Shown here: piece by piece, positions 26,552 through 53,775 of the stretch
Layout of the letters: each line of letters opens with the position of its first letter
Numbering within the stretch: the stretch's first letter is position 1
Position numbers and translations under genes: made by a program
Virus record (IMG/VR): IMGVR_UViG_3300028298_000008
Span: 1-62,634 of that record
Origin: a virus
Taxonomy: Duplodnaviria > Caudoviricetes
Strand: one strand, 5' to 3'
Length of the DNA: 62,634 nt
The notes under the pieces: model-generated
Databases searched by the model: none
What the model saw: only the letters and a program-made list of their open reading frames with translations
Told to the model about the DNA's origin: nothing

Positions 26552-26642
26552 AGCAGAAAAGCGCAAATAGACACAGTTTTGTGTGAAATTTAATCGGTTT
26601 TGAAGGGGCTTTACGATGAAAAATTTAATAGGCAAAGAGGAT

Positions 26643-33754: not shown

Positions 33755-34393
33755 TTATTTGGTCATAATCGTTTTAATGTTTGCCGCTGCCACTGTCATC
33801 ACCTTACCAGGAGCGATGCCGAAGATTTTGTGAGTCCAGCCAGACGTAGCATCATGCGTGATCTTAGGAATTAAACTGGGATCAACGGCATAATGTCTTG
33901 ACCAGTAGCTAACCCAATTTTCATCATTAATATTAAGGACAAGACTGAGTGTGCTTTGCGCTGCACCAACAGCATCATTCCAGATGTTTGTTATATTAAA
34001 ATTATGCCACGCGTATCGTGCTGGAACAGAAACACTTACCGCATTTGTCGTCGTGTAGTCAGTGCCACTTCCCGAACACCCCCCGCCATTCCAATTTGTT
34101 GAGGCTTTATACTGATTCCAGTTACTGACGACAGGGTTCCAGCCACCTGCACCTTCCGTCCAGTCTGTAATTAACATTCTCGATACAACCCCTTTGTCAG
34201 CAACGGCAGATCTATTTGAAACGTAAAGTGATAATACTGCTGAGGTAACTGTAGATAGCCCAGTAATATTAAATGCTATAATACCCCGGCGAGTCGTGGT
34301 TCCATCTAATATTATTTCTGTATCAGCACCCCAATTGGTAGTAGAGTATCCTGCCCTCATAAAATTGTCTTTTAGTGCATTTAATACAGTCAT
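33755..34393 (-). CDS. DNRLRE/CBM96-like beta-sandwich virion protein
   Basis: KDNFMRAGYSTTNWG...RRGIIAFNITGL...VTSAVLSLY...WTEG...WN...FNITNI...PKIT; GGAGG RBS at the true start 34393. Confidence 0.72.
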   Translation of the reverse strand: MTVLNALKDNFMRAGYSTTNWGADTEIILDGTTTRRGIIAFNITGLSTVTSAVLSLYVSNRSAVADKGVVSRMLITDWTEGAGGWNPVVSNWNQYKASTNWNGGGCSGSGTDYTTTNAVSVSVPARYAWHNFNITNIWNDAVGAAQSTLSLVLNINDENWVSYWSRHYAVDPSLIPKITHDATSGWTHKIFGIAPGKVMTVAAANIKTIMTK

Positions 34394-34893
34394 ACCACCT
34401 CCACCAGCACTAAAGCGGGCAGGAATAACAGTATATCCGCAGCCAGAGCCACGCCGACCACCTGAATCTGATCGCCAGTTTGATTTGGTACAGTTTGATT
34501 TAATGCACCTGCTGTATGTGCTGTATCCGCTCCTGAACCAGCATAGACCAGATCGCCCACTGTCCATCCCGGATTAAGGGTATGAAGGTGAACAATAGTC
34601 CCTGGTAGCAGAAAGACGCCTACCGCATCTGCGCTGATAGTTGCCGCCGCCATCACACTACCGGGCATAGTCGCCGCGCCGTCCGCATCAGTCAAGGCCG
34701 CCTCACCGCTTGCATTGATAAAACATAGCTGGCCGAGGGCTACGTTTTCATGGGCTGTCAAGGTAACTATATTCCCTTCCCATGTATCAGCAGCAGGGGC
34801 AGGAGCTGTATCAATGGAATGGCCATTTAGGTCAAGATCCCCACCAAGTTGTGGAGTGGTATCTTTGACGATATTCTCTCCCAATTTAAGCAT
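34390..34893 (-). CDS. virion structural / tail accessory protein
   Basis: DTTPQLGGDLDLNG; Ala/Gly/Thr-rich; WTVGDLVY, QVVGVA. Confidence 0.65.
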   Translation of the reverse strand: MLKLGENIVKDTTPQLGGDLDLNGHSIDTAPAPAADTWEGNIVTLTAHENVALGQLCFINASGEAALTDADGAATMPGSVMAAATISADAVGVFLLPGTIVHLHTLNPGWTVGDLVYAGSGADTAHTAGALNQTVPNQTGDQIQVVGVALAADILLFLPALVLVEVV

Positions 34894-34904
34894 CAAACAC
34901 CTCC

Positions 34905-35231
34905 TTAGCTCCTCCTCATACCAGATAGATGGAATGAGCAAGATTCCCCAGAATTTGCTTTCACTCTGATCTGTTCCAGATTCCGAGCATTTACACTTAA
35001 CTCGTGTATATCATTTCCATCAATTGTTTTATCATAGGCAAGAAAGGATGCCACCGCAGCAGGGGATTCCCCTGATGGAGAATGGGCTACTCTGTAAGAT
35101 TGAATCAAAGCAGACTGATTTACAATCCTAACAATCCCAACAACATCTGCATTTGCAGGCACCTCATATAGTTGAGCCTCTGTCACATTTGCTGGTTTCA
35201 GCGCAGCTAATCTTAAATACTGAACAGTCAT
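34905..35231 (-). CDS. small virion accessory protein (beta-rich)
   Basis: LYEVPA...IVNQ...FLAYD...SFHLSG; two SGE motifs. Confidence 0.65.
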   Translation of the reverse strand: MTVQYLRLAALKPANVTEAQLYEVPANADVVGIVRIVNQSALIQSYRVAHSPSGESPAAVASFLAYDKTIDGNDIHELSVNARNLEQIRVKANSGESCSFHLSGMRRS

Positions 35232-35250
35232 TTTAATTCCCTCCTTTTAA

Positions 35251-35535
35251 TTATAGAGTGCTATAAAAGAAACCAATAGTTTCTTCAGTATCCACTGCTG
35301 TCTTGGTAGCCTTCTGTGTTGCAATTACCGTATCACTGTTTGCCGCCAAAGTTCCATCTGTATCGTAAGTCAACCCCCAAGAAGCATCACCATTAGCATC
35401 TCCCGTCAATATGGTGCTCGCAGCTTTGCCTGTAAGCAAGCGAATAGTGTAAAAGAAACCCTTCAGCCATGCTTTTGCAGTGGTTCCAATTCCACCTTCA
35501 TTATCTGCTCGCGGCACTATGTTTTTCGTAGCCAT
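35251..35535 (-). CDS. tail fibre-like small protein
   Basis: NIVPRADNEGGIGTTAKAW, DGTLAANSDTVIATQKATK. Confidence 0.65.
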   Translation of the reverse strand: MATKNIVPRADNEGGIGTTAKAWLKGFFYTIRLLTGKAASTILTGDANGDASWGLTYDTDGTLAANSDTVIATQKATKTAVDTEETIGFFYSTL

Positions 35536-35545
35536 TTCTTCCTCC

Positions 35546-36790
35546 TTAATGAGACAGATATTCAATATCAATAAGCATCTTTGTACCTATGCCAGTATTT
35601 ACTGTTTGTCTTGCTTGTAAAACTCCAGCAACAAATTGAAGTTCTATATGTGCACCATTAGGTCTGGATAAATAAGTTATGTTCTCATATCCCAAACAAC
35701 CTCCAGCATGAGCCAAGCAAGTTCGATCATTCTCATGTCCAAACTCATCTTCATATAAAACGCCCACAAGAGCGGAGAATCCCATCCCTGAAGAAATGAC
35801 CAATTTTGTATTATACCACATTCCGTTTTCAGGCAGTGTGATACGTGTCTTTACATTTGTCACGGAGCTGTAAGTGTTCTGCAAAAGCATGTTCAAGAAT
35901 TGTGGTGTTGATCTATGACCAAGAACCTCATCAATTCTTCTGATCATATTCAAAGACAAATGGGTCTTCCAATCAATGTCTCCTACCAACACTTCACAAA
36001 GCTTCAGTGTAGAAGTGAATCTCCTTGATATTTGGTATTCTATATCTTCTACAGATGCTCCTTCGAAGAAATCCTTTAATGTGACTTGTCTGTTGGAATC
36101 AACAGAAGCTATCTCATAGACAACTTTACCGTTCCTCACCTTGAGGAAATGTGTTAAAGGATCAATATTGTATTGCCACAAAGTTCTCTTGCCCATAATT
36201 GTTTTGGAGTTTCTTGTTGCCGAAATCACACCTTCTATATATTGAGTAAGTCCTCCAAATAGAATTGCTGCTGCTCCCCCCACAACAGCTCCGCCGATCA
36301 TAGAGCTTTCATCCTCAATTATGTCAATATCCGCAGAGCCACCAGCAACAGCACCACCAAGAAACTCCCAAATAAGTTTTCTTAGGACTACTGCCTCTCC
36401 ACCAGCAACAGCGCCACCAAGCATATCAACAATATATTGATGCAAAGTGGAATAATCAAAAGAACCTCCAGCAACTCCTCCACCAGACATTGCCATTAGT
36501 AATCGAGCATACCAACTTGTCAATCCGCCAGCAACAGCACCACCAAGCATATTAACAAGTTGTGTTCTGTTAAAGCCTGCTGATCCTCCGGAGATTCCCC
36601 CTCCCACCATATCAAATACATAGGCATTCCTTTCAAAGAGATCGTCTCCATCCAAAGACCAATACAGATCAAAATCTGTGCCTACAGAAGGCATCAAATC
36701 CCCAGAGCCATCAACTTCCCATTGCCCCTCTGTAGAAACAGAAGCCAACGGCTGTAAATCATTATTAATATCTCTTTCCCACGTGGACAT
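35546..36790 (-). CDS. virion protein with GGAVAGG repeats; C-terminal half paralogous to 37251-37982
   Basis: Six (M/F)xGGxxxGG repeats; shared GDIDW, IRRID, LYEDE, CLAH, YLSRPNG motifs. Confidence 0.7.
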   Translation of the reverse strand: MSTWERDINNDLQPLASVSTEGQWEVDGSGDLMPSVGTDFDLYWSLDGDDLFERNAYVFDMVGGGISGGSAGFNRTQLVNMLGGAVAGGLTSWYARLLMAMSGGGVAGGSFDYSTLHQYIVDMLGGAVAGGEAVVLRKLIWEFLGGAVAGGSADIDIIEDESSMIGGAVVGGAAAILFGGLTQYIEGVISATRNSKTIMGKRTLWQYNIDPLTHFLKVRNGKVVYEIASVDSNRQVTLKDFFEGASVEDIEYQISRRFTSTLKLCEVLVGDIDWKTHLSLNMIRRIDEVLGHRSTPQFLNMLLQNTYSSVTNVKTRITLPENGMWYNTKLVISSGMGFSALVGVLYEDEFGHENDRTCLAHAGGCLGYENITYLSRPNGAHIELQFVAGVLQARQTVNTGIGTKMLIDIEYLSH

Positions 36791-36802
36791 ATAATCTATT
36801 CC

Positions 36803-37231
36803 TTATGTAGGAGTTCCTTTTGACAACTGAAATTTTGGTGTCACCAAAATCTGGTCGCCGTTGTTTACAGGAGTAAATGCCTGAGCAAACTTCTCCGCCC
36901 AAACAAGAACACCATCTGCATCAACAACAAAATAACCGTAGACCGTTCCATTTGTTGTTAGTGGTCCAGTGAAAGCAAACGTCTGTTGGGCGTAGATGGC
37001 ATCACTTGGATCATTAGCAGGGGTTACTGTCCAGCTCCCATTACTCAGGGTTTTCGCTGCATAGCCTCCTCCCAATGCCTCAGTGTAGGTGCCTGCCACA
37101 TCGGTGTCGGCGGGTGTTACATCCGTAGCGAACAGTTTTAAAGTTAAATCTTTTCCTCCAGCCGCCCAATCATCATTGAAAAAAGCCTTTAAAGCCACAT
37201 CCGCTCCAACATCTGCAAGTACAAGAGCCAT
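36803..37231 (-). CDS. tail/virion structural protein
   Basis: LKLF...YTEA.GGGYAAKTL...W...YGYFV...WAEKF, a common phage tail-associated pattern. Confidence 0.7.
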   Translation of the reverse strand: MALVLADVGADVALKAFFNDDWAAGGKDLTLKLFATDVTPADTDVAGTYTEALGGGYAAKTLSNGSWTVTPANDPSDAIYAQQTFAFTGPLTTNGTVYGYFVVDADGVLVWAEKFAQAFTPVNNGDQILVTPKFQLSKGTPT

Positions 37232-37250
37232 TTTCCTTACCTCCTATATT

Positions 37251-37982
37251 TTATACATGAATCATATAATTACCAAACACAGTCAGCTTTGAATCCAAAC
37301 TCGAATTAACAATCTGCCTAACCTGCATCTCACCTGATATAAACTGAAGTTCAATATGCTCTCCATTTGGTCTTGATAAGTATGCTACAGCTTCTCCACT
37401 AACAGGACCACCATAGCCACCAATATGAGCGAGACATGATCTATCATTCCCATGAGCGTTTTCGTCTTCATAGAGCACGTTAATGAGGCCAGAGAACGCT
37501 TCCGCAGCATCAACTACAAGATCAGTATCATACCAAGTGTTCACAACAGGATTCAATTGGGTGAAGAATAAAGTATTTGACTCTCCACTCGCAGAACTCA
37601 GCTTCAGCCCTGCAAACTGAGGCACTGCATTATGACCAAGCAGTGTATCAATCCTCCTGATAACATTCGTGGTCAAATGAATTGGCCAATCAATGTCGCC
37701 AGGATTGATTTCTTGAAGCTCCAGAGTAGGCGTCCAATCTCTTGAAATCTGATACTCACCAGAGATAATATTCTCTCCACTATAAGCAGGGGTGATTGTG
37801 AGGGCTTCATTGCCATCAACAGAACTAACGGTGTGGATATTCCAATCATTCAGAAGTTTGAAGGAATCACCAACTTCGACTTCGGTTAAGAAGGTTGTGC
37901 CTATTCCCCGAACCTCATTCAAACTTCCTCCAAGAAGGAGAGATTCCCCACTTATAGTAACATACCCCGTTCTGTATTGCAT
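37251..37982 (-). CDS. tail accessory protein carrying six SGE motifs
   Basis: QYRTGYV...VRGIGTTF...VGD tail-fibre N-terminal-like motif; six SGE; paralog of the C-half of 35546-36790. Confidence 0.72.
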   Translation of the reverse strand: MQYRTGYVTISGESLLLGGSLNEVRGIGTTFLTEVEVGDSFKLLNDWNIHTVSSVDGNEALTITPAYSGENIISGEYQISRDWTPTLELQEINPGDIDWPIHLTTNVIRRIDTLLGHNAVPQFAGLKLSSASGESNTLFFTQLNPVVNTWYDTDLVVDAAEAFSGLINVLYEDENAHGNDRSCLAHIGGYGGPVSGEAVAYLSRPNGEHIELQFISGEMQVRQIVNSSLDSKLTVFGNYMIHV

Positions 37983-37985
37983 AAT

Positions 37986-38297: not shown

Positions 38298-41200
38298 TTA
38301 TCTTTTAATTTCCAGCAAAACCAAAGATCGACTGGAAGCTATCACAGCATCTTCCCCAGACCAAGCATAAACAGCTAAAGAGTAAGTATAAGTTCCTGCA
38401 TCAGGATTGTCCAAATAACTAAGAGGAACGGAACAATTGGTATAAATACCAGCATGCCCCCCATGCACAAAACTAATAGCCGTTATCTGTGTAACTCCTC
38501 GATATAGGAGGAGGATACCTATTAAAACTGCACCTGCTGTAGTTGCCCTTGCTTGAATACCGCCAGTGACAAGCACTTTTCCTCCTGTTACTGTTATTTC
38601 ACAAGACAACACCGTCTCTGCTGTGTTGTCAGCAGGGCAAGAGATGTCATTTCCATTATACGAGGAGGAAGTCGTTGTTACTGCATTTGCCACCAAATTC
38701 CCTGTGACAATAATATCTCCACCAATTGTTAATTCAGTCCCATTCCAATTTAAATATTTACTGGAATCCCCAATATAGAATTTTGCCCTATCTGAATCAG
38801 AATCATCAATTCCGAGGATAAATCCAGATTCAGTATTTGTAAAATCTGTCTTCCCTGCCCGAATAACTGAATCCCCTGTCCCAGCAGCAACAGCCAAAAC
38901 AATATCCTTCGATGTAATAGTACCAGCAAGAAGTTTACTCACTGCTAATTCATCCACAGTAATAATATTTCCTGTGGTTGTGTTTACTAAAGCAACCCCT
39001 GAGGTATTTGTTATCTGAATACCATAGACTCCTGTGGACAACAAACCAATTTTTATTCGATCTCGAATCCCATCATTAACAACAATATTCTTATTGGTTC
39101 CCGACAACAACAAAGAGTTTGCTCCAAGATAAATTTCCTGGGCACCAATGGTTCCTGCTGTAAGTTTGCTAACAGCTAAAGAATCAATCTTTGCATTTGT
39201 AATTATTGCGTCTTTAATCTGAGCCGACAGGGTGATCAACTCTCCAGTGGTTACTTTGTCCGAAGTAACAGCCCCTGCTTGAATGTCTGCTGTTCCTACC
39301 TGAGCTGTTGTGGCATTTAATTCAGAAGCATAATTGGAATAATTTCCAGACCAATCATAAGCTCGAACTTTGGCATAATATTTTATAGCAGGAGAGCCAT
39401 CATAAACAACGACTGTGGAAAGGCCTTTGTAGAAAACGGAATATACACCACCATCAGGTTTTATTGAGACCTCATACCCCGCTAAATCCTCTTCAGTATT
39501 AGCTGTCCAAGAACAAATGATTTTTTTCAAGCCAGCAGCAACGGCAAATCCTGTAGGCGTTGCCGGAGCTGAAGAGTCTGCTATGCAAGTGGTATCTACT
39601 TCTGCACTGAAAGCAGATTCATTCCCCCATTTATCCACACCTTTTATTTTAACATAATATTTAATACCTGGCAAAAGACCAATAAACTTATGCTTCAATG
39701 CAGTGGAAAAAACCTCAGTGTACCTCGTTTCTCCATCTCGTCTCAATTGAAGAGCATAATTATTAAAATCATCCTCAGTATTAGCATTCCAAGTGGCTTC
39801 AATATAAGCAGTAATCGCCTGAGCAATTTGCTCAACCCCTGAAGACAAAGCAAGCCCTGTAGGCACATCCGGAGGAACATTATCTGTTGGATCAGTGGAA
39901 GAAATCCGAACCAAAGTTTCCGTTGAATAATTAAGTTCATCCAATCCAAACGTATCATAAGCAGCAACCTTAAAGTACCAATTCCCTGAATCCAGTTGAA
40001 TTAGTGGGTGAGTATCCTTGCCTTGATACAACAAATTTGCTGAACTCGGAGTAAAATCCGCTGTTGTTGATCCATAAATAACATATCCTTGAAAATCAGG
40101 CTCATCATTCGCATCATACACTATCAGAACCGCTTTAATTCGTGCAGTGTAAACAACATTGCTTGGCATATCTGGAGCAGGGTTTAAAACTGTTAATCTG
40201 GCCGGTATCCTTGAAGTACGGTAATACCTATCTCTTGCTCTCACTTCAATAGTAAAATGACGATCAATGCCATCTTCATAATTTTTCTCATAAGTATAAA
40301 CATAGGTATTTACCGTTACATATTCAGTCCTCCTCAACGTGTTAACGGCGTCAAATATTTTCACTTGATAATCTTTAAACCATTGAGGAGGATAATGATA
40401 ACCAGCACCAGTAGGTTCTTCGCCTGCCGGATGCACATCTAATCCCACAGCAGATATTTCATTCCAAACCAATTTACAATCTCTGCCAGTAAACTCCACA
40501 GCATTGCCCTGACCATCAATATGAAGACCAGACACAATATCCTCTAAAGTTTCATCACCTGACCAATCACCACTCCCTGTGGTAGTGATGCTTATTGTAG
40601 GCGAAACACTGTCTCTTGATCTGACGCCACTCCAAGATTCACTGATTATGAGAAAAGTATATGTTATTTTTGGTTCAGCATTAATAAAAACATAACTCTC
40701 GGAAATGGTCAAGCCTGCATATGAATAAACCGATTGTCCTGTCTTCTTAAAAAACACTAAGGCTTGTTTATATAGAGCATCATTTGGTCGCTTGAAAGTA
40801 ATCAGAATGTCTCTGACAACATTACCAGACTCATCCAGTCGAGAACTTTCGGCAACTGTAATATTAGTTACCACAGATACAGAACCCTGAGGAGTATAAT
40901 CAGGTGTTTGTACAATAGGTGTTCCTGTGTCAACAGAATACACATTTGCATTATATTCAATAGCTCTAATGGTGGCTATCTGATCATCAGTCTTTGATAT
41001 ATCTACTACTCGAAAAGGCTTTGTCTCAACCCCAAGTTGACCAAAAGCATAAACATCATATTGAACAGGAATTTCTGAAAATGGAGTAGACACAGTAAGA
41101 ACAGTATAGGAACCTGCCACATTCGTCACTGTTTTGGTAACCAAAGTATCATTCGCTAAGCGAATAAGAATGCCATAAGTAATATCAGCATCAATAGTAA

Positions 41201-43898
41201 CCGTTTGATCAAGCGTCACAGAATTAACTGTGGCACTGACAATCCTCCCTCCAGCATCTCCCCATCTTGGTGTATCATGTTGAAAATCAATGACATCACC
41301 AATCATACAAGCGATTGCGTCAATGTCTGCGGCAAACTGTATCGTGCGCTTCCGGTATTGATTCCCCAATAAGCAGTATTGAGCAAATCGCCAAGCTTCC
41401 GATTCCCTTACAGCCCCAACCAAATAAGTTGACACTTTGTTTGTGGGTCGGTCTATTGAATTATTAAAAATAGAAACGGCATCTTTTTCATAATCTTTAT
41501 CTATATTTCTGTAGGAAACTTCAATTTCTCCCGCCCGATCTTCCAATGGCAGAAAAATTTCCTCAAAAGAATTCTCGATCACATTACCTGAAGAGAATAA
41601 CTGAACGGGAGAGGCGGCTTGCTCAATAACCACAGACAAGTTATATCCATACCAAACAAGCACTGCTCTACAAGTACCACTTATCTGTAATGCAGCCTCC
41701 CAAATAGTTGTAGCCGCATCAAATCCACCATTAAAAGTCAACCTTCTTTCAAGTCCACCACTTCCATCGTTGACAAGGACATCACAAAAATCAGCCCATG
41801 CTTGAAAATCTGTGGTTATAAGACGAGCAGAATCAAACCCTTCAAAGCGAACAACTCCATCAGTGGCAGCTCCAGCAATACATTCCCACCTAACAGTGCC
41901 ATCAACGACCGTCTGTCCTATTGTTGTTGGCCATATCGGCTCTATAGTTCCGGGCACTCCTGCAACAATACATTTATATAAACGACCATTTAGAACATTT
42001 GGTCTCACTTTCTTATTCACTGAATATGTCGGTCTGTAAGTAGAAGACATCCAATTATCATAAAACACAGGCTGTGTTAGTACATCAGAACAAACCCAAG
42101 CAGGATTTGAACTATATTCAATCCGCCAAGAGGCTGTGGCAGAATAATTTACACCAGAAATCCAAATGAAGGAGACGTTGTCTTTTAAAGGAGGAGCGAC
42201 ATTATCTACAGAACTGCTACCAAGTTGAGACCAATAAGCAGCCCAACTGGCTCCGGTAATAGGTCGCTTATCTGCACTTGCAATATGAGCTGCTTTACAA
42301 CGATAATTTTTACCATCTGTCCCAAGAACCTCATCCTTACGATATACACGAACATAACGACCTTCTAAAAGGCAAGAAAATTTTAAACTTCCAGAAAGCT
42401 GATCTGTAGCAAGAGCTTTTATGCCAACCAACACTTTTCGTGGATAGATAAAATCATCGTTGAATACTTCCCTTACAGATAAGAACCAAGAGTCATCAGC
42501 ATATTTAATATCAGAATAATTCTCGTTTATCCTTGTGACAATAATATCGTAATGTCCTTTTGTAAAGGAAACGGGATCTTTCAGGATAAAAGTTTTTGTG
42601 AAGGCACTGTTTTTATTGCTGATTATTCTTGAATAAGCATAGCTTGTTGTCCCGACATCACTTGAAGTTATCCAATGCCAATGCAAAGCTTGGTAGGAAG
42701 TAATGGTTGTTTCCAAACCTGTTTCTGGATCAATTGTCTTAGAAGTAATTGCCTTTGTTACTTGCTGACCTTCATAATGATCCGCATAAACAACTGAACC
42801 TGCTTCTTCTTCGTGCCATAAATTCTGATAGTAAATTCCTCCTTGAACACCAGGCGCATCTGTCCAATAACCAAGACTCCATCTCAAATGAACAGTTGTC
42901 ACATCTCCTGTCCAACCAGATAAGATATATCTCTTTGTTGGGTCGCTCATATGAACAGCTTCCACTTGTATATCAATCTCATGATCCTTAAAGTTTCCGC
43001 TTGAATCCATATGATAAACACCCTTTGGAAAAGTTATATCAACTTCAAGACCATCAAAAACATCTCCCCGTGTTCTGTACACGACAGGAGAGCCAAACAT
43101 AACCTTTCTATTGACAGTGTATTCTGCTTTGGTGTCGTCAAAATTAGGAATTAAAGACTGCGTTATATAACCACCCCGAACGCGGATTTCTATTTTTGTA
43201 TAAGTAGAAATATCCTGATCATTTATCTCAAAAGAAGATAAACTTTTTACTGGTCCCATTTCTAAACAGATTAACAGATTAATGTAATTTTTATCTTCGA
43301 TGTTTTCTGTAAAGGCATCAATTATATTACCAAATACTTTGCTCTTACCATAGAAATAAGGGATTGGTAAACCTTGCTGTTGCGTAGTTACAGGTGACCA
43401 AGAAGCCGTTTGTGACAATGGAGAATCACCAAATGACAAATTGTTTGCATTTAAAGGCAGGAGGGCATCGATCAGCATTCCACCAAGCATCATTCCTCCC
43501 ATACCAACAGCAGCATAGGTGCCATAGTATACTGCTGCCTGAGCTAAACCAGACAATCCTCCTAACCCAGGAACAAGTCCCGACATATATGCTGCCGCAT
43601 ATGGAGCTGCCCACGCAACGGCAACGGTCAAGGCAATAAATGCGATAGTTCGTAAAGCATCCCCATCTTCAACAGAAGGAATAAAAACAGCTTGATCTCC
43701 ATTCCGCAAAGAAACTAAAGGCCAGTCTTCCTCTTTAATCACTCTTCCATTGACAACTACTCGAACATTAATCCCAATAGGGAAATGCAATTGTCTCAGT
43801 TCAAGCAGGGACTCTTTATGATAGGCTATTAAAGAAGTCTCCCGATCTCTCCTTGTGAATGGGTCTTTTATTTTTACAAGACTAATTCGCTCTTCCAC
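38298..43898 (-). CDS. tail tip / central fibre protein (lambda I+J-like fusion) with FN3 repeats
   Basis: N-terminal ubiquitin-like part and hydrophobic stretch, PIPYFYG, SNPAW, FNGGFD, IGDVI, FN3 motifs (YFKVAAYD, YYVKIKGVDKWGNES), IKDAIITNAKI. Confidence 0.9.
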   Translation of the reverse strand: MEERISLVKIKDPFTRRDRETSLIAYHKESLLELRQLHFPIGINVRVVVNGRVIKEEDWPLVSLRNGDQAVFIPSVEDGDALRTIAFIALTVAVAWAAPYAAAYMSGLVPGLGGLSGLAQAAVYYGTYAAVGMGGMMLGGMLIDALLPLNANNLSFGDSPLSQTASWSPVTTQQQGLPIPYFYGKSKVFGNIIDAFTENIEDKNYINLLICLEMGPVKSLSSFEINDQDISTYTKIEIRVRGGYITQSLIPNFDDTKAEYTVNRKVMFGSPVVYRTRGDVFDGLEVDITFPKGVYHMDSSGNFKDHEIDIQVEAVHMSDPTKRYILSGWTGDVTTVHLRWSLGYWTDAPGVQGGIYYQNLWHEEEAGSVVYADHYEGQQVTKAITSKTIDPETGLETTITSYQALHWHWITSSDVGTTSYAYSRIISNKNSAFTKTFILKDPVSFTKGHYDIIVTRINENYSDIKYADDSWFLSVREVFNDDFIYPRKVLVGIKALATDQLSGSLKFSCLLEGRYVRVYRKDEVLGTDGKNYRCKAAHIASADKRPITGASWAAYWSQLGSSSVDNVAPPLKDNVSFIWISGVNYSATASWRIEYSSNPAWVCSDVLTQPVFYDNWMSSTYRPTYSVNKKVRPNVLNGRLYKCIVAGVPGTIEPIWPTTIGQTVVDGTVRWECIAGAATDGVVRFEGFDSARLITTDFQAWADFCDVLVNDGSGGLERRLTFNGGFDAATTIWEAALQISGTCRAVLVWYGYNLSVVIEQAASPVQLFSSGNVIENSFEEIFLPLEDRAGEIEVSYRNIDKDYEKDAVSIFNNSIDRPTNKVSTYLVGAVRESEAWRFAQYCLLGNQYRKRTIQFAADIDAIACMIGDVIDFQHDTPRWGDAGGRIVSATVNSVTLDQTVTIDADITYGILIRLANDTLVTKTVTNVAGSYTVLTVSTPFSEIPVQYDVYAFGQLGVETKPFRVVDISKTDDQIATIRAIEYNANVYSVDTGTPIVQTPDYTPQGSVSVVTNITVAESSRLDESGNVVRDILITFKRPNDALYKQALVFFKKTGQSVYSYAGLTISESYVFINAEPKITYTFLIISESWSGVRSRDSVSPTISITTTGSGDWSGDETLEDIVSGLHIDGQGNAVEFTGRDCKLVWNEISAVGLDVHPAGEEPTGAGYHYPPQWFKDYQVKIFDAVNTLRRTEYVTVNTYVYTYEKNYEDGIDRHFTIEVRARDRYYRTSRIPARLTVLNPAPDMPSNVVYTARIKAVLIVYDANDEPDFQGYVIYGSTTADFTPSSANLLYQGKDTHPLIQLDSGNWYFKVAAYDTFGLDELNYSTETLVRISSTDPTDNVPPDVPTGLALSSGVEQIAQAITAYIEATWNANTEDDFNNYALQLRRDGETRYTEVFSTALKHKFIGLLPGIKYYVKIKGVDKWGNESAFSAEVDTTCIADSSAPATPTGFAVAAGLKKIICSWTANTEEDLAGYEVSIKPDGGVYSVFYKGLSTVVVYDGSPAIKYYAKVRAYDWSGNYSNYASELNATTAQVGTADIQAGAVTSDKVTTGELITLSAQIKDAIITNAKIDSLAVSKLTAGTIGAQEIYLGANSLLLSGTNKNIVVNDGIRDRIKIGLLSTGVYGIQITNTSGVALVNTTTGNIITVDELAVSKLLAGTITSKDIVLAVAAGTGDSVIRAGKTDFTNTESGFILGIDDSDSDRAKFYIGDSSKYLNWNGTELTIGGDIIVTGNLVANAVTTTSSSYNGNDISCPADNTAETVLSCEITVTGGKVLVTGGIQARATTAGAVLIGILLLYRGVTQITAISFVHGGHAGIYTNCSVPLSYLDNPDAGTYTYSLAVYAWSGEDAVIASSRSLVLLEIKR

Positions 43899-48843: not shown

Positions 48844-48855
48844 ATTACACCTCTC

Positions 48856-49499: not shown

Positions 49500-49528
49500 A
49501 TTAAAACACTCCTTTCAAAATCCCTATT

Positions 49529-50500
49529 TTATTCATACGAAGTTGTTGGGCTCAGCAAGACCATTCTTGCTGCTGTCGCCGCGGCCGCATCGCTGTAGTA
49601 AGCCTCAAACGGCAGCTCTACCAACACCCCTGCAGGACCGGTTACTACTGGCGCCTGTGGTTTCAATATAACCTCATCAAAAGAGAAGGTCATCTTTTCA
49701 TTCCCGGATGAACCGTCCCCATTGCCTTTGGTGAAACAAATTGTAAGAGCAATTTCTGTGTTAGCAATGGCAAGATCATACAATGTGGTGCTGTCAAAAA
49801 TAGCCCTCAGTGTCCCTGTTACTTTCGCAGATCCGGCTGGCAATGAATCCCTCTCCCCAGTACCATCAATGACATAGTTACTGCCATCAAGATTATTTTC
49901 AAGAGTAAACTCAAACTCAGTCACTCCCGCCAAGGCTGATCCGTCCTTGGTAAGAGCCGCCTCAAAGGCATCAAATGGAGTGAAACCAAGATCAGTGGGA
50001 GTAGAGTCCATTGTATTTACTGCTTCCGTTTCCTTTGCTCCCATAATATTCACAGAACACTCAATCATGCCTTCTGACTTACAAGACATGGTAAAGCTGT
50101 TCACCCGGCAGCCGTTGTACTGAAAATATTTTGGTGAGGCGAGATCAAGGAACTGCTTTTCAATAACCAATCCGTTAGGAAGGGAGCCGACTTTGAATGT
50201 GTGAGTTGACATTTCACCTGTTGCTGCATACCCATAATGACCATAGATATGCTGAAACAGCCTTCCATGCTGAGGAGACAGTTCAAAGGGAATATCCCCA
50301 GAAATCTCTGTATTGCCTCTTACAGGCTGTTGTGGATTTCTATCAGACCGAATTGTGTTTGAAGAGATCAGGTTCCTATTCAACCGCAAACTCTCGCTCA
50401 CAAATGGAAGATACATGGCATCCACTACGGCCGGATTTGTTTTGAAAGTGTCCTCAGTGTCGTAAATAAGTTTTACATTACTTCCCTGTTGCTGTGCCAT
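49529..50500 (-). CDS. major tail tube protein
   Basis: PFVSESL...SNTIRSDRN...GDIPFEL...YNGCRVNSF...FTLENNL...VTGTL. Confidence 0.85.
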   Translation of the reverse strand: MAQQQGSNVKLIYDTEDTFKTNPAVVDAMYLPFVSESLRLNRNLISSNTIRSDRNPQQPVRGNTEISGDIPFELSPQHGRLFQHIYGHYGYAATGEMSTHTFKVGSLPNGLVIEKQFLDLASPKYFQYNGCRVNSFTMSCKSEGMIECSVNIMGAKETEAVNTMDSTPTDLGFTPFDAFEAALTKDGSALAGVTEFEFTLENNLDGSNYVIDGTGERDSLPAGSAKVTGTLRAIFDSTTLYDLAIANTEIALTICFTKGNGDGSSGNEKMTFSFDEVILKPQAPVVTGPAGVLVELPFEAYYSDAAAATAARMVLLSPTTSYE

Positions 50501-50505
50501 TTTAC

Positions 50506-50727
50506 TTACCTCCTTCCTCTATTTTTTCTTGGTTCTATTACGTCTTCCTTCTTTTTAGAAGACATTAAGGGAGGAGGGAAGTCAAACACCTCTCTCACCC
50601 TTCCTTTTCGCACCAACTGATCAATGGCATCATCTGGAAGATCATCCCTCATCTGTCCTTTTGTAAACACATAAGGACCAAAGGCAATCTTGTCTGGACC
50701 ACGCTCATATATTACTTTCCTTGACAT
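50506..50727 (-). CDS. small protein between tail terminator and tube
   Basis: GGAGG RBS. Confidence 0.6.
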   Translation of the reverse strand: MSRKVIYERGPDKIAFGPYVFTKGQMRDDLPDDAIDQLVRKGRVREVFDFPPPLMSSKKKEDVIEPRKNRGRR

Positions 50728-50728
50728 A

Positions 50729-51145
50729 TTACATACCTCCCTTAATATGACGATAAATAATCGAATAATCGATCAGCATTGCTTCCATCGCTTGTGTAGG
50801 ATCGATTACATAAATATCTGCCCCTGTTCTGAATGAGGTAACAGCATATCCTGACATCGTTTCTCCAGAATGCATCTTTTCGTGTATTGCCCCCAACAAA
50901 ACTTCCATATCGGAGTCCTGTGCCCACACTTCAATGGCAATACTCCAATCCCACGTTTCGTAACCGATAACAGAATAGTTGGGTTCTACTATTCTCCTCT
51001 CAACCCCTGAGTAAACAAATGCACAAGGCATTTTTACTGTTTCCATATCGATAAGGGTGTTTTTGTTTACTTGAACCTCTTGTAAAGCAGAAACACCTTC
51101 AAGTATTGTCTTTATTGTGGTTAAAATATTTGCTCTTGTGGTCAT
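50729..51145 (-). CDS. tail terminator protein
   Basis: TTRANILTTIKTIL...MPCAFV; position and size. Confidence 0.7.
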   Translation of the reverse strand: MTTRANILTTIKTILEGVSALQEVQVNKNTLIDMETVKMPCAFVYSGVERRIVEPNYSVIGYETWDWSIAIEVWAQDSDMEVLLGAIHEKMHSGETMSGYAVTSFRTGADIYVIDPTQAMEAMLIDYSIIYRHIKGGM

Positions 51146-51822
51146 TCTCCAAACCCACCCACTACAGTTCCACCTGTTATTCTCAAACTGAGAAAACCAA
51201 AATCATAACCGCTAAAAGCATCTCGCATGGCTTCTGCCATCTGTCTCTTTCTGTATGCAGCAATCTCATCAAGCTTCACACGCTGAGGAATTCTTATGGT
51301 CTTCTTTAATATAAATGCTGGTCTTATTTCCTTCCCCACCTTCCAATAAAGGGTATTCTCTTTTAATTTACTCTCCGATCCTCTTCTTGGTCTAAATAAT
51401 CTTGGATACAAATTCATCAATTGCCCTGGGACAAAAGGGGAAATCCAACCCCCGTCTTTTTTTCTCACCCAAGGCATTGGTACTGTGAACTTTTTCCCAC
51501 TGGTAGTAAAAACCCCACTGCTTCCAGTACCAACATGCAATGAGGCATATCTCGTTCCTTCCCCCACAACAAGAGCACCGATCACCGTTCCAGCACTTGT
51601 TCTCTGCACTGTATAAGTAGTCCCCTTATACAACTTGCCTGACTTATATGCAACAGAATCACTTCCTTTTCTACTCAAATGCTGTATCTTCAAATAAGAA
51701 ACAAAATCACTCATCTCCTTATGCATTACATCTTCCATGATGCCAGGAACGCTCATACCTCGCCGGACAACCCGCTGCTTAACATCCGGTTTCAATCTCA
51801 TTTGAAAGTTAATTGTTGGCAT
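51142..51822 (-). CDS. tail completion / neck protein (HK97 gp10-like)
   Basis: Basic; KSGKL...YASLHVGTG; LKKTIRIPQR. Confidence 0.65.
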   Translation of the reverse strand: MPTINFQMRLKPDVKQRVVRRGMSVPGIMEDVMHKEMSDFVSYLKIQHLSRKGSDSVAYKSGKLYKGTTYTVQRTSAGTVIGALVVGEGTRYASLHVGTGSSGVFTTSGKKFTVPMPWVRKKDGGWISPFVPGQLMNLYPRLFRPRRGSESKLKENTLYWKVGKEIRPAFILKKTIRIPQRVKLDEIAAYRKRQMAEAMRDAFSGYDFGFLSLRITGGTVVGGFGE

Positions 51823-51824
51823 CT

Positions 51825-52562
51825 TTACCTCATTGTTGGCACTCTTCTATAAGGTCTTAAAATATCAACGACTTCAGCGAGTAATTTCATAGGAACAAGC
51901 TTTGAGAAAGACCCATCAGGCATGGAAATAGATGATATGCCTATGTCCTTCCTTCGCCTAAAAGCAAAAGCCATCTGCATCAATGCTGCAAGGCGAGCAT
52001 CATCTGGGCAACCACTCAAATAAGAATGATCTAAATACTGAGTCCCAGATGCCCACGCCACACCTACTGCGCCAAGCTGAGACCAATAAGTAGCATAATC
52101 CTCTCCAGTAATGGGCTTGTTGGTGGCTGCGGCAGTATGAGTTAATCTGCAACGATAATTCAAACTGTCTGTCCCAATAACCTCAGAAATAGAGGCTTCA
52201 GCATAACCACCTGTCCAAGCAATCAAAAGCTCCTTTGGATCAGCGTAAGGCGTTTCTGTGGCAAACTCAATCAAGCCTTCCTCCGCCCAGACGTAGTAAG
52301 CACTATTTAAAGTCTGAACGGAGCCGTCAAGTGTTACTGTTAAAGCCACATCTGTGTCAATGGGATAAGCAGGAAGATAATAAAATTTGCGTCCGGAATC
52401 AAAATATTTACTATATGCAGCTTTGACGAGATTTCTATTCAACCACGTCTCGATGCGCTTAGAAACAACATCATCAAAAATAGCCAACAGAGAATCTTGT
52501 GATACCTTATCAGTATCGATCTCCAAGAATGCTTTTAAATCCGGGACGCTGACGATCTTCAT
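51825..52562 (-). CDS. head-tail adaptor (gp6/gp15-like) with inserted CBM-like module
   Basis: VSVPDLKAFL...IETWLNR...WTGGY...PDDARLAAL...ILRPYRR; insert EVIGTDSLNYRC...YWSQLG. Confidence 0.8.
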   Translation of the reverse strand: MKIVSVPDLKAFLEIDTDKVSQDSLLAIFDDVVSKRIETWLNRNLVKAAYSKYFDSGRKFYYLPAYPIDTDVALTVTLDGSVQTLNSAYYVWAEEGLIEFATETPYADPKELLIAWTGGYAEASISEVIGTDSLNYRCRLTHTAAATNKPITGEDYATYWSQLGAVGVAWASGTQYLDHSYLSGCPDDARLAALMQMAFAFRRRKDIGISSISMPDGSFSKLVPMKLLAEVVDILRPYRRVPTMR

Positions 52563-53287
52563 GTCTTACTTCTCCGTTTCAAACCAGACCTGCCAGGCTG
52601 GCGCAGGATGGCTCTATGTTTCTTTGTGTCCATGAGCTTGTCTTCTACCTCACCCTCTTTGGTCTTTTCAACTCCTTCTTCGGCTCCACTTTTTTCTTCT
52701 TTTTCTTTTTCCTCTCCTTCATTCACTTTTCCCTCCTTTACTTTTTCTGTTTTGTCTTCCCCCTGCACCTTTGAAGACTTTTCCAAGGTGATAGTGATAA
52801 CTTCTTCAATTGGAGGCACTCTCTTCACAACAGGGACAATGCTTTCTTTTGGAACAACAAGAATAAGACCAACACCTTCCCCCATTTCTTCTTCCTCCTC
52901 TTTCTCCTTTTCTGAGGGAGGATCCACCCTGTCAAAAACCCAATACCTTTCCATGTATTCTTGTTCTGTTAAGGAAATAATTGTCCCTGATGGGGAGTCC
53001 TTTCCTGTGATAGAATCGGGGTAGGTATACCCTCCACGAATTTTCACTTTGATTTTGTTCACTGTTGTGGCATGATTGCCGTCCTTAATTTCCTGAAGTT
53101 TTCTGTCATAGAAATCTCTCTCTGCCTGATTCTTTGGAATGATCTTTTCAAGAATATGACTTGCCTTACCATATTCTTCCTCCGTAACTTCCAGAACAGA
53201 GTCCTCAGGATAAACTCCATCACTTCTTGATTTCTTCTCTTTGAGTTCGAGATTGAAAGTGTATCCATGTCTGACTTTTACTAACAT
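52559..53287 (-). CDS. hypothetical protein with two internal repeats and a Glu/Lys-rich tail
   Basis: VKVRHGYTF...EVTEEEY and VKIRGGYTY...SLTEQEY; AGGAG RBS at 53287. Confidence 0.65.
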   Translation of the reverse strand: MLVKVRHGYTFNLELKEKKSRSDGVYPEDSVLEVTEEEYGKASHILEKIIPKNQAERDFYDRKLQEIKDGNHATTVNKIKVKIRGGYTYPDSITGKDSPSGTIISLTEQEYMERYWVFDRVDPPSEKEKEEEEEMGEGVGLILVVPKESIVPVVKRVPPIEEVITITLEKSSKVQGEDKTEKVKEGKVNEGEEKEKEEKSGAEEGVEKTKEGEVEDKLMDTKKHRAILRQPGRSGLKRRSKT

Positions 53288-53310
53288 TGCCGCTCTCCTT
53301 TCTTTTTTAA

Positions 53311-53337
53311 TAAGGGGCAGGCAGAACCTGCCCCTTA
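53311..53337 (-). terminator. perfect 11-bp hairpin downstream of the capsid/decoration genes
   Basis: TAAGGGGCAGG-CAGAA-CCTGCCCCTTA; the U tract on the minus strand is weak, so it may be a partial terminator or mRNA stabiliser. Confidence 0.65.
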
Positions 53338-53355
53338 CTTTTAACAAAACCGACT

Positions 53356-53775
53356 TTACACAGCCGGTACTATCGTGGCTTCACCAAGAACAACGGCTAC
53401 GCTCACATTTGCCGTCGGAGAAGATCCTCCCGTAAATGTAGGAGTGACTGTTGGTTTCACCCATCTCTTTCGTGCCTTGAGATCAACATTCACCTCAAGA
53501 TAGGAACCGGGAATATCCGCATTCTCACCTGTGATCGTTGTCGTTTCCGAAATGGTAACTGCGGCATAGGTGCCACTTTCCGTGTCACTTTCCTGCAAAC
53601 CAAATTCGATCTGCACATTCGTGGGAGAATTTGCGGTATAACCGCAACCAATTCCGAACTTGGCACTCTCGTATCCTTTACGATCAAAAGCAATGCCGGA
53701 CACCACCGTTTCTCCTGAAACAATCTGTGGATAGAACTTTAACAAAGTCTTCAATTCTTCGCTTACTTGCTTCAT
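53356..53775 (-). CDS. capsid decoration / cement protein
   Basis: Directly after the MCP; FDRKGYESA...LQESDT...KRWVK beta-rich pattern. Confidence 0.72.
   Translation of the reverse strand: MKQVSEELKTLLKFYPQIVSGETVVSGIAFDRKGYESAKFGIGCGYTANSPTNVQIEFGLQESDTESGTYAAVTISETTTITGENADIPGSYLEVNVDLKARKRWVKPTVTPTFTGGSSPTANVSVAVVLGEATIVPAV

What the first reader, a model, noticed from the sequence alone, without database searches (positions are those of the whole stretch)
34390..53775. Recurrent Ser-Gly-Glu motif in small virion proteins: candidate sequon for a phage-encoded virion glycosylation system
Seen: the 243-aa protein 37251-37982 has six SGE tripeptides (ISGES, YSGEN, ISGEY, ASGES, VSGEA, ISGEM). 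They use different codons (AGT GGG GAA, AGT GGA GAG, TCT GGT GAG, AGT GGA GAG, AGT GGA GAA, TCA GGT GAG), so this is not a DNA repeat. Chance expectation is well below one per protein of this size. SGE also occurs in 34905-35231 (PSGES, NSGES), 34390-34893 (ASGEA), the capsid decoration protein (VSGET, plus ITGEN), the tail terminator (HSGET) and the tail-tip C-terminus (WSGED). TGE occurs in the tail tube (twice) and the head-tail adaptor. On the + arm I noticed SGE only once, in DnaJ. Established: some phages glycosylate their own virion proteins with encoded glycosyltransferases, and Ser-Gly with neighbouring acidic residues is the acceptor in proteoglycan O-xylosylation. Inference: (S/T)-G-E is the acceptor sequon for the glycan made by the 10947-28430 cluster, giving the virion a coat that could shield it or change adsorption.
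Basis: partly seen in the sequence, partly recalled or inferred. Interest (0 to 1): 0.92.

Follow-up and report, generated by a model that had tools for sequence, protein, structure and literature searches.

The report
Ser-Gly-Glu motif on phage virion proteins
A three-residue motif, Ser-Gly-Glu, is far too frequent on the outward-facing particle proteins of this uncultured tailed phage and some relatives to be chance, which suggests a surface mark such as a modification site, although its link to the phage's own sugar genes is not supported.

Summary
The 243-aa protein (37251-37982) has six SGE; 0 of 200,000 shuffles reach six. It is a side-fibre-type protein with a PyoF13-like N-terminal attachment domain.

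After homologous contexts were removed, SGE is the most enriched of all tripeptides in 141 virion-arm proteins of this phage and its relatives: 44 sites against 14.1 expected, P 1.5e-10. The excess sits in the cement/decoration-like protein, tail tube, side fibres and distal tail proteins. It is absent from terminase, portal, protease, capsid, tape measure, J and non-virion proteins.

It behaves as a property of whole genomes or proteins. Fibres with SGE in their N-domain carry tenfold excess SGE in non-homologous C-terminal parts, and SGE-free fibres carry none. All three residues are specific, and TGE is not enriched.

The flanks suggest strand-turn-strand loops. No structure could be predicted.

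The link to the 10947-28430 glycosyltransferase cluster is not supported. One complete SGE-rich genome lacks all five glycosyltransferase families that detect the window's enzymes. A relative lacks the cluster at the matching junction.

Best reading: a selected surface motif, probably a serine modification site with an unknown writer.

The parts
37251..37982 (-). 243-aa side-fibre-type protein. It has an N-terminal attachment domain (about residues 1-116) and a C-terminal domain (about 130-242). Six SGE sites lie at nt 37944-37952, 37773-37781, 37755-37763, 37581-37589, 37392-37400 and 37329-37337.
   Evidence: Searches give counts, codons and shuffles; a profile of its family matches the F2-pyocin side fibre 25ve_A residues 2-72 (E 3.9e-15) and chain 23gd_B (E 3.6e-12). 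One search finds 381 homologs, mostly of the N-domain. P0002 (77% identical) keeps 6 of 6 sites.
35546..36790 (-). 414-aa paralog. A Gly/Ala-rich repeat region is followed by a copy of the 243-aa module. It has no SGE.
   Evidence: 44% identity over 202 residues. The five aligned SGE sites read EGA, DIE, a non-SGE stretch, a 3-residue deletion and AGV.
34905..35231 (-). 108-aa protein of unknown family with two SGE (residues 53 and 94).
   Evidence: No PHROG or Pfam match. Expected SGE is 0.03.
34390..34941 (-). Fibre-tip-like protein with one SGE (residue 78).
   Evidence: residues 60-182 are 44% identical (E 1e-27) to the C-terminal domain of fibre homolog P0065. P0065 does not have SGE at the aligned place.
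35251..35571 (-). 106-aa protein that shares a 30-residue fibre segment with the SGE-rich fibre of L005. It has no SGE.
   Evidence: 66.7% identity over 30 residues, E 6e-8.
53356..53775 (-). 139-aa cement/decoration-like protein encoded directly after the major capsid gene. SGE at residue 20, TGE at residue 82.
   Evidence: phrog_5707. Atlas neighbour clusters in which 13-18% of members carry PF21190 Bbp16 (a lead only); in 60 close homologs the sites at residues 20-22 and 82-84 are SGE in 59 and 56 sequences.
49529..50500 (-). Tail tube protein. TGE at residues 94 and 214 in the window; orthologs carry SGE at four different positions.
   Evidence: phrog_290, E 2.7e-56, and gene order; alignment of 6 orthologs; 6 SGE against 0.96 expected in the orthogroup.
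50729..51145 (-). Tail terminator with one SGE (residue 93) that orthologs do not share.
   Evidence: phrog_4204; 1 of 6 orthologs has it; 1 against 0.31.
51825..52562 (-). Head-tail adaptor with TGE at residue 152.
   Evidence: phrog_442; orthogroup 2 SGE against 0.27.
38298..43898 (-). Central tail fibre J (1866 aa) with one SGE near the C-terminus (1847). Not enriched.
   Evidence: phrog_31, E 6e-123; orthogroup 1 against 1.7.
10947..13058 (+). 703-aa fused glycosyltransferase, GT4-type (about residues 197-323) plus a GT9-like part (about 419-648). Candidate writer, unproven.
   Evidence: PF13692 1.4e-9, PF00534 1.2e-8, PF01075 3.6e-5; heptosyltransferase models, all far below their cut-offs; only weak matches to solved structures.
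13064..13771 (+). 235-aa GT2-type glycosyltransferase.
   Evidence: PF13704 5.1e-8; the best solved-structure match is GmaR at E 0.033, which is not significant.
10947..28430 (+). Sugar-modification cluster: glycosyltransferases, at least 5 SAM methyltransferases, a DegT/LegC-like aminotransferase fragment, WbqC, GNAT, a B12-radical SAM, two further radical SAM enzymes (one with SPASM), and three HNH genes.
   Evidence: no multi-pass membrane protein. G018 shares the core (GT4/9 56%, GT2 62%, radical SAM 65% identity).

Best explanation
SGE is a selected short motif at loop tips of the outward-facing virion proteins: the cement/decoration-like protein, the tail tube, the side-fibre modules and distal tail proteins. 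It occurs in this lambda-like siphovirus and in a subset of its relatives, and it behaves as a property of whole genomes or proteins rather than of one fold.

The most likely mechanism is that the serine is the acceptor of a post-translational modification. The modification would be added in the cytoplasm before or during assembly. Glycine would make the turn accessible and glutamate would be part of what the writer recognises. O-glycosylation is the leading candidate chemistry.

The writer is not identified. It need not be the + arm glycosyltransferase cluster, and it may be host-encoded.

Shown: the enrichment, its restriction to exterior proteins, its specificity at all three residues, its conservation and positional turnover, and its occurrence without the window's glycosyltransferase families.
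Inferred: loop exposure, any modification, and the chemistry.
For: 1. Unbiased ranking. Among all tripeptides in 141 virion-arm proteins (41,263 aa) of the window and its relatives, after homologous contexts were removed, SGE ranks first with 44 sites against 14.09 expected (P 1.5e-10). The next is ISG at 5.1e-5.

2. Placement. Decoration-like 13 against 0.56, tail tube 6 against 0.96, fibre 16 against 0.49. In contrast: TerL 0 against 0.32, portal 0 against 1.27, protease 0 against 1.35, MCP 1 against 1.02, tape measure 2 against 2.1, J 1 against 1.7. The 87 non-virion proteins have 4 against 5.35.

3. Trait of the whole protein. Of 121 fibre homologs, the 36 with SGE in the N-domain have 17 SGE against 1.65 expected in non-homologous C-terminal parts (P 3e-12). 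The 85 without have 1 against 4.76. This was repeated on contigs: 18 against 0.81 compared with 1 against 1.92.

4. Specificity. In SGE-bearing fibres SGE is 84 against 3.8, while every other SGx, xGE and SxE lies near or within about threefold of expectation.

5. Conservation. In 60 decoration-like homologs (mean pairwise identity 0.49), S20, G21 and E22 are 98% each, and S82, G83 and E84 are 98, 100 and 95%. SGE per protein across 120 homologs is 0 in 60, 1 in 1, 2 in 24, 3 in 27 and 4 in 8.

6. Turnover. Tail tube orthologs carry SGE at four different positions. The serine codon class differs between orthologs at homologous sites: TCA, AGC and AGT.

7. Context. Hydrophobic residues stand at -1 (67%), -2 (57%) and +2/+3 (53-54%), against a 42% background, in 83 non-redundant sites. 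Indels or turn-type variants occur at the sites in homologs.

8. Precedent read in passages. TibC heptosylates serine but not threonine, including an N-S-G-G turn (PMC4358343). The abstract of PMC13445384 reports a host enzyme modifying a phage tail protein.
Against: No modification can be seen in sequence, and no writer was found.

A gene-content comparison of 13 SGE-rich and 29 SGE-poor loci turned up only structural tail proteins. These loci are mostly structural-module fragments, so genes elsewhere in the genomes were not compared.

The paralogous 414-aa protein in the same genome has none of the five aligned sites.

The major capsid protein, which is also exposed, is not enriched.

Much of the decoration-like signal is inherited from two to four ancestral sites, so those counts are not independent events.

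In SGE-free fibres the first site reads T-N-G-S, so SGE occupies ordinary turn positions.

Confidence: 0.45

Rival explanations
1. One reading: (S/T)-G-E is the acceptor sequon for the glycan made by the phage's own cluster at 10947-28430. One of its soluble glycosyltransferases would transfer the sugar to virion proteins in the cytoplasm.
For: The cluster is real, and all its proteins lack multi-pass membrane segments and export components. That fits a cytoplasmic acceptor. Part of the 703-aa enzyme is GT9-like (PF01075, 23.6 bits against a cut-off of 22; 25.6 bits). According to PMC4358343, the serine-specific autotransporter heptosyltransferase TibC structurally resembles the GT-B enzyme WaaC (passages). 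Five genomes with SGE-free decoration-like proteins have no PF13692 match and no PF00535 match above the family cut-off.
Against: G049 is rated 100% complete and has SGE 11 against 3.76 expected, 9 of them in the block 11744-22780, which includes 2 in an SRAP peptidase gene. It has no match to the five families that all detect the window's enzymes. G012 has 11 SGE against 2.46 and no cluster at the syntenic arm junction, and it matches none of the five families in its 30 kb. G038 (10 against 3.34) and G054 (7 against 2.61) also have none, but both are fragments. TGE is not enriched. TibC does not appear among the 9 solved-structure matches at E up to 10. The G020 and G021 genomes carry GT2 genes without any SGE excess, but their virion genes are unrelated.
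Confidence: 0.12
2. SGE is a functional surface element that is not modified. It could be a multivalent weak adhesion or ion-binding hairpin tip. It could also be a docking site for another virion or host component. The closest analogy is the accessory Ig-like domains found on decoration, tube and fibre proteins of other phages.
For: The same set of exterior proteins is affected. There is specificity at all three residues. Copy number is kept while positions turn over. No writer enzyme was found. The trait occurs without phage glycosyltransferases.
Against: A tripeptide offers little binding surface by itself. No partner is known. The strict need for serine over threonine is typical of enzymes, though it does not prove one. 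Nothing was tested directly.
Confidence: 0.25
3. SGE is only a favoured way of building a tight turn. It would have been inherited within lineages and spread by module exchange, with no function of its own.
For: The sites lie where homologs have other turn sequences: T-N-G-S, SGS, SGH, SGK, AGT. NG is lower in SGE-bearing fibres (59 against 64 expected) than in SGE-free fibres (303 against 225). Most decoration-like counts descend from a few ancestral sites.
Against: This does not explain why unrelated proteins of one genome adopt the same tripeptide while close relatives use none. It does not explain why all three residues are fixed. It does not explain why only exterior proteins are affected. 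It does not explain why the fold tolerates other sequences in the paralog. Control sets sit at expectation: 22 against 16.9 in five genomes and 21 against 17.96 in 15 loci.
Confidence: 0.13
4. SGE marks cleavage sites of the prohead protease. Morphogenetic proteases that cut after glutamate in short motifs are known from T4 and phiKZ; this is recalled, not checked.
For: The most conserved site lies at residues 20-22 of the decoration-like protein, a typical propeptide length. The phage has an S78-type prohead protease.
Against: Tail tube, side fibres and distal tail proteins never meet the prohead protease. Six cuts would destroy the 243-aa protein. The head-internal proteins (portal, protease/scaffold) have no SGE.
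Confidence: 0.03

Closest known systems
Virion glycosylation of mycobacteriophages by phage-encoded glycosyltransferases (Freeman et al. 2023, Cell Host Microbe). I saw only the reference-list entry. The paper is not held. The content below is recalled.
   Same: A tailed phage with its own glycosyltransferases, and exterior head and tail tube proteins as the proposed targets.
   Different: No glycan is shown here. As far as I recall, no short defined acceptor tripeptide was reported there. Here the motif also occurs in genomes without the glycosyltransferase families.
Bacterial autotransporter heptosyltransferases TibC/AAH (PMC4358343; passages read).
   Same: A cytoplasmic GT-B enzyme resembling WaaC that modifies serine but not threonine at many sites of a beta-rich surface protein, including a Ser-Gly turn. 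The window's 703-aa enzyme has a GT9-like part.
   Different: No detectable sequence match to TibC among solved chains. The iron site, the dodecamer and the catalytic residues were not tested. The acceptors there are beta-helix repeats, not SGE.
Proteoglycan O-xylosylation at Ser-Gly flanked by acidic residues
   Same: A serine-specific acceptor with glycine next to it and an acidic neighbour.
   Different: It is a eukaryotic secretory-pathway enzyme of another family. No such family was found among the cluster's Pfam or NCBIfam matches.
PyoF13 side fibre of the F2-type pyocin (PDB 25ve; PMC13455828, passages read).
   Same: The N-terminal domain of the 243-aa protein is homologous (E 3.9e-15). 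The gene lies just after the central fibre gene, as in lambda-like tails.
   Different: PyoF13 reads T-L-N-S-E-A and A-S-G-Q at the two N-domain sites, with no SGE. The window's protein is short, and its fibre parts are spread over several small genes.
Accessory Ig-like domains on decoration, tail tube and fibre proteins of many phages (recalled).
   Same: The same set of exterior proteins carries a shared accessory feature thought to act at the particle surface.
   Different: Here the feature is a tripeptide in loops, not a domain.
Host-enzyme-dependent methylation of a mycobacteriophage tail protein (PMC13445384; title and abstract seen).
   Same: A covalent mark on a tail protein written by a host enzyme. 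This is a model for a writer that lies outside the phage genome.
   Different: Different chemistry. No motif of this kind is known to me from that work.

Membership tests
Phage-encoded virion glycosylation system | The phage encodes glycosyltransferases. | tested here: met
   GT4+GT9 fusion and GT2. The window as control matches five glycosyltransferase families.
Phage-encoded virion glycosylation system | Glycan is covalently attached to virion proteins. | not testable with these tools
   Needs mass spectrometry or glycan staining of virions.
Phage-encoded virion glycosylation system | The acceptor motif and the glycosyltransferases occur together among relatives. | tested here: not met
   G049 (rated complete, SGE 11 against 3.76) matches 0 of 5 families. 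G012, G038 and G054 (fragments, SGE-rich) match none. 0 of 32 related records match PF13692, and 1 of 32 matches PF00535 below its cut-off.
Autotransporter heptosyltransferase (TibC/AAH) type | A GT-B catalytic domain related to LPS heptosyltransferases. | tested here: inconclusive
   PF01075 scores 23.6 and 25.6 bits against a cut-off of 22, over about 55 residues only. NCBIfam heptosyltransferase models score far below their cut-offs.
Autotransporter heptosyltransferase (TibC/AAH) type | Sequence similarity to TibC itself. | tested here: not met
   No TibC chain among the 9 solved-structure matches at E up to 10 for residues 400-703.
Autotransporter heptosyltransferase (TibC/AAH) type | Four-cysteine iron site, dodecameric ring and conserved catalytic residues. 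| not tested
Proteoglycan xylosyltransferase acceptor | A xylosyltransferase-type enzyme is present. | tested here: not met
   Only GT4, GT9-like and GT2 families were found among the 20 cluster proteins scanned.
Side tail fibre with PyoF13-like N-terminal attachment domain | A homologous N-terminal domain. | tested here: met
   The family profile matches 25ve_A residues 2-72 at E 3.9e-15. 381 homologs of varied length share the domain at their N-terminus.
Side tail fibre with PyoF13-like N-terminal attachment domain | The gene lies next to the central fibre gene of a lambda-like tail module. | tested here: met
   37251-37982 follows J (38298-43898) on the - strand.
Bbp16-like capsid cement protein | A match to PF21190. 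| tested here: not met
   No Pfam match at E up to 0.1 apart from a weak OMP_b-brl hit. The only link is Atlas neighbour clusters in which 13-18% of members carry PF21190.
Bbp16-like capsid cement protein | A small protein encoded directly after the major capsid gene. | tested here: met
   53356-53775 follows 53790-54995 on the - strand. The same order holds in L022 to L027.

The most novel reading that the evidence does not exclude
SGE is the defined acceptor sequon of a serine-specific modification system for virion proteins that works in the cytoplasm. The writer may be host-encoded or an unrecognised phage enzyme. The system marks the capsid cement protein, tail tube and fibres in a scattered set of environmental siphoviruses. 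This would be the first short sequon known for a covalent surface coat on phage particles.
Probability: 0.4. Interest if true: 0.85.

Novelty: new variant of a known kind. Interest (0 to 1): 0.74.

Why it matters
If the serines are modified, this gives a readable sequence signature for covalent surface marks on phage particles. Such marks could then be predicted from metagenomes. Particle surface chemistry bears on adsorption, stability and immune recognition, and it could be tied to lineages and hosts.

Even without a modification, the pattern needs a mechanism. One tripeptide is selected on unrelated exterior proteins of a genome and is absent from close relatives, which implies an agent that reads the particle surface.

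My text searches found no phage paper naming this motif. One search returned 23 papers holding one of four phrasings, and none of the 15 listed concerns phages. The claim is directly testable by mass spectrometry on two small proteins.

Tried and rejected
Chance was rejected by shuffles and by the unbiased ranking of all tripeptides.

A DNA repeat was rejected. Only the 8-nt core of three sites is shared, and codons differ.

Internal duplication of the 243-aa protein: the flanks of the six sites are unlike each other. A spacing of 63-64 residues recurs three times among the 15 pair distances, but random placements reach this in 2904 of 100,000 trials, and I noticed it after the fact.

The '(S/T)GE' extension was rejected.

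A general excess of SGE in phage structural proteins was rejected. Controls sit near expectation: 15 fibre loci 21 against 17.96; five genomes 22 against 16.9; 78 tail-tube loci 108 against 89.9, SGE-rich ones included.

My first ORF picker used both strands and dropped some real genes. For example, it lost the decoration-like gene of L150. I repeated the table with match-strand ORFs only and use that one.

DNA glycosylation as the cluster's role: no hydroxymethylase, TET-type or base-exchange family turned up in the + arm proteins scanned. Several ORFs have no match, and the record is rated 69% complete, so this stays open.

A search for a writer by gene content used 13 SGE-rich and 29 SGE-poor loci, followed by Pfam on 10 proteins. 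It gave only baseplate or tail families and one SRAP peptidase.

Searches that found nothing:
- megablast and tblastn against the phage collection
- viral contigs with the 243-aa protein alone
- genome contigs
- viral contigs with the 703-aa glycosyltransferase

G020 and G021 share only the replication module with the window, so they say little. G018 has the cluster core but no virion genes on its fragment.

Supplementary files of papers were not opened. Those of PMC4358343 and of the Freeman paper may list acceptor sites that bear on the comparison.

Full report
What the window is. The window is a whole virus record of 62,634 bases, rated 69% complete. It has two convergent arms that meet near base 30,000.

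The + arm holds recombination and repair genes: a RecA-like protein, a 5'-3' exonuclease, and an SbcCD-like pair. It also holds a DnaJ-domain protein and the sugar cluster at 10947-28430. That cluster comprises a 703-aa GT4+GT9-like fusion, a GT2, several SAM methyltransferases, a DegT/LegC-like aminotransferase fragment, WbqC, GNAT, a B12-radical SAM and two further radical SAM enzymes.

The - arm is a lambda-like siphovirus structural module. It runs terminase, portal, prohead protease, major capsid protein, a 139-aa protein, adaptor, terminator, tail tube, tape measure, the L/M/K-like proteins and the central fibre J. A string of small genes follows, starting with the 243-aa protein.

The observation. 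The 243-aa protein has six SGE. 0 of 200,000 shuffles reach six, and 0 of 20,000 shuffles give any tripeptide six times.

The rest of the - arm has 8 against 3.28 expected (85 of 5000 shuffles). The named region without that protein has 7 against 2.09 (27 of 5000). The + arm has 1 against 2.33. TGE alone is not enriched: 6 against 3.14, reached in 486 of 5000 shuffles.

What the 243-aa protein is. A search of 1.84 billion representatives found 381 homologs. Most share only residues 1-116, at the N-terminus of proteins of 112 to 1369 residues. A profile of 114 of them matches the N-terminus of the F2-pyocin side fibre (25ve_A residues 2-72, E 3.9e-15) and chain 23gd_B. The paper on that structure describes this part as an OB-like domain that fastens the side fibre to the central fibre (PMC13455828, passages).

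So the protein is a side-fibre-type module. Its neighbours are further pieces of fibre. 35546-36790 ends in a 44% identical copy of it. 34390-34941 matches the tip domain of fibre P0065. 35251-35571 shares a fibre segment with L005.

SGE in the fibre family. In 151 sequences (51,630 aa) there are 90 SGE and 8 TGE. Two of the window's sites (residues 11 and 68) fall at places where many homologs also read SGE. At the first site the commonest reading is T-N-G-S.

I split 122 proteins at the end of the N-domain. Leaving out the close relative P0002, the 36 with SGE in the N-domain carry 17 SGE in their unrelated C-terminal parts against 1.65 expected (P 3e-12). Without P0015 as well, the figure is 11 against 1.39. 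The 85 without N-domain SGE carry 1 against 4.76.

The same split on 39 contigs from two collections gives 18 against 0.81 and 1 against 1.92. Five loci were dropped there because no fibre ORF was picked.

In SGE-bearing fibres SGE is 84 against 3.8. The other SGx, xGE and SxE tripeptides lie near or within about threefold of expectation, with TGE at 2 against 4.5. That set was chosen for having SGE, so at least one per protein is built in.

The paralog in the same genome has none of the five aligned sites. P0002 (77% identical) keeps all six, and P0003 (37%) keeps none.

SGE in the other virion proteins. Six relatives found through the capsid protein (L022 to L027, fragments of 4 to 25 kb) have 23 SGE against 7.76 expected.

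The 139-aa protein after the capsid gene has SGE at up to four aligned places in its orthologs. Tail tube orthologs carry SGE at four different places. At two places where the window reads TGE, some orthologs read SGE.

G012 is a 30-kb fragment whose RecA, exonuclease, SbcCD, tape measure and J genes match the window's. It has 11 SGE against 2.46 expected, 10 of them in genes after J.

I pooled 141 virion-arm proteins and dropped sites with similar flanks. SGE is then the most enriched of all tripeptides: 44 sites against 14.09, P 1.5e-10, with ISG next at 5.1e-5.

By orthogroup the excess lies in the decoration-like protein (13 against 0.56), the tube (6 against 0.96) and the fibre (16 against 0.49). 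It does not lie in terminase, portal, protease, capsid, tape measure or J. The 87 non-virion proteins have 4 against 5.35.

The decoration-like family. A profile search listed 120 homologs. SGE per protein is 0 in 60, 1 in 1, 2 in 24, 3 in 27 and 4 in 8. In total there are 162 against 6.24 expected, with TGE at 7 against 7.43. All fall at four aligned places.

In the 60 SGE-bearing sequences (mean pairwise identity 0.49), the residues of the two core sites are 95 to 100% conserved and are among the 15 most conserved columns. The window is the only one with threonine at the second site. SGE-free members read S-G-S at the first site.

These counts reflect inheritance and conservation, not independent gains.

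The protein has no Pfam family and no natural solved relative. Atlas neighbour clusters in which a minority of members carry PF21190 Bbp16 give a lead that it is a capsid cement protein.

Context of the sites. In 83 non-redundant sites, hydrophobic residues stand at -1 (67%), -2 (57%), +2 (54%) and +3 (53%), against a 42% background. At several sites homologs show indels or other glycine turns. This fits strand-turn-strand loops.

Distribution among relatives. Among 78 loci found through the tail tube, the total is 108 against 89.9, so most relatives lack the trait.

Loci whose capsid protein is 64-81% identical to the window's all have SGE in the decoration-like protein: 7 of 7, two of them near-identical. 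Tube SGE is present in 5 of these 7, and in 5 of all 8 loci with decoration-like SGE; the eighth, L163, has a 58% identical capsid protein. Of 19 loci with an SGE-free decoration-like protein, 18 have none in the tube.

Many loci with a 59-64% identical tube have another head module and no SGE. Three loci with other heads (L162, L181, L183) are SGE-rich in distal tail genes.

Five genomes with SGE-free decoration-like proteins have 22 against 16.9.

The link to the glycosyltransferase cluster. The cluster's proteins have no multi-pass membrane segments. An acceptor in the cytoplasm is therefore plausible.

G049 is rated 100% complete. It has 11 SGE against 3.76, and 9 of them lie in the block 11744-22780. 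That block contains tail proteins, and 2 of the 9 lie in an SRAP peptidase gene. G049 matches none of PF13692, PF00535, PF13704, PF01075 and PF00534, while the window matches each.

G012 has its two arms abutting directly after the homolog of 4355-4987, where the window carries about 25 kb including the cluster. It matches none of the five families either. It is only 37% complete.

G038 and G054 are SGE-rich fragments and also match none. 0 of 32 related records of 15 kb or more match PF13692, and 1 of 32 matches PF00535 below its cut-off.

G018 is the closest relative of the + arm. It keeps the cluster core but holds no virion genes.

The 703-aa enzyme's GT9-like part recalls the serine-specific autotransporter heptosyltransferases (PMC4358343, passages). 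However, TibC does not appear among its solved-structure matches. The GT2's best match, GmaR, is not significant at E 0.033.

Reading. One tripeptide is fixed at all three residues. It is enriched only on exterior particle proteins. It is shared by unrelated proteins of a genome and missing from close relatives. It is kept in number while its positions shift. Together these features point to an agent that reads or writes the particle surface.

I rate a serine modification as the most likely mechanism (0.45), with glycosylation as the leading chemistry. The other readings are an unmodified functional loop (0.25), a mere turn habit (0.13), the phage's own cluster as the writer (0.12) and protease sites (0.03). 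Nothing here shows a modification.

Limits. Expected counts come from each protein's own composition. My ORF calls are simple and were not curated. Many related records are fragments. The key paper on mycobacteriophage virion glycosylation was not held.

Noticed in passing
window:56836-60519 (-): The portal gene encodes 1227 aa. It has an intein with a LAGLIDADG domain (about residues 72-448) and a C-terminal SAM methyltransferase domain (about 1064-1154). In relative L026 the matching methyltransferase part is joined to the protease/scaffold gene instead.
   Followed up: partly
window:26616-28430 (+): A second intein with a LAGLIDADG domain. It interrupts a SAM methyltransferase. The homolog in G018 is 214 aa, has no intein, and matches methyltransferase families.
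   Followed up: partly
window:13671-14417, 21466-22032, 23536-24189 (+); 16939-17586 (+): Three HNH endonuclease genes, one with an AP2 domain, lie inside the sugar cluster. The DegT/LegC-like ORF is only 215 aa, and its best stretch covers positions 25-97 of the 360-position family model. It may be truncated or split.
   Followed up: no
window:35546-36790 (-): The 414-aa paralog of the SGE-rich protein begins with Gly/Ala-rich repeats (GGA five times, GGAVAG-like). Homologs P0005 and P0006 share this build. It has no SGE at all.
   Followed up: partly
window:37329-37952 (-): Three of the six SGE sites use the same 8 nt (AGTGGAGA) and lie 189 and 192 nt apart. A spacing of 63-64 residues occurs three times among the 15 pair distances. 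Random placements reach this in 2904 of 100,000 trials, and I noticed it after the fact.
   Followed up: partly
window:33755-34567 (-): A 270-aa protein with a carbohydrate-binding module, CBM96 (E 1.2e-9), among the small genes after the fibre modules.
   Followed up: no
window:34390-34941 and 35251-35571 (-): Parts that are fused into one fibre in other phages (the tip domain of P0065 and a mid-fibre segment of L005) are separate small genes here.
   Followed up: partly
fibre homologs P0003 to P0151: In SGE-free fibres the dipeptide NG is over-represented (303 against 225 expected) and the first N-domain turn reads T-N-G-S. In SGE-bearing fibres NG is at expectation (59 against 64). SGE seems to take the place of Asn-Gly turns.
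   Followed up: partly
L199:11744-12358 (G049): An SRAP-family peptidase gene (E 6e-68) lies next to the tail genes of G049 and carries two SGE, although it is not a virion protein.
   Followed up: no
window:10246-10914 (+): A DnaJ-domain protein is encoded immediately before the glycosyltransferase fusion. It holds the only SGE of the + arm.
   Followed up: no
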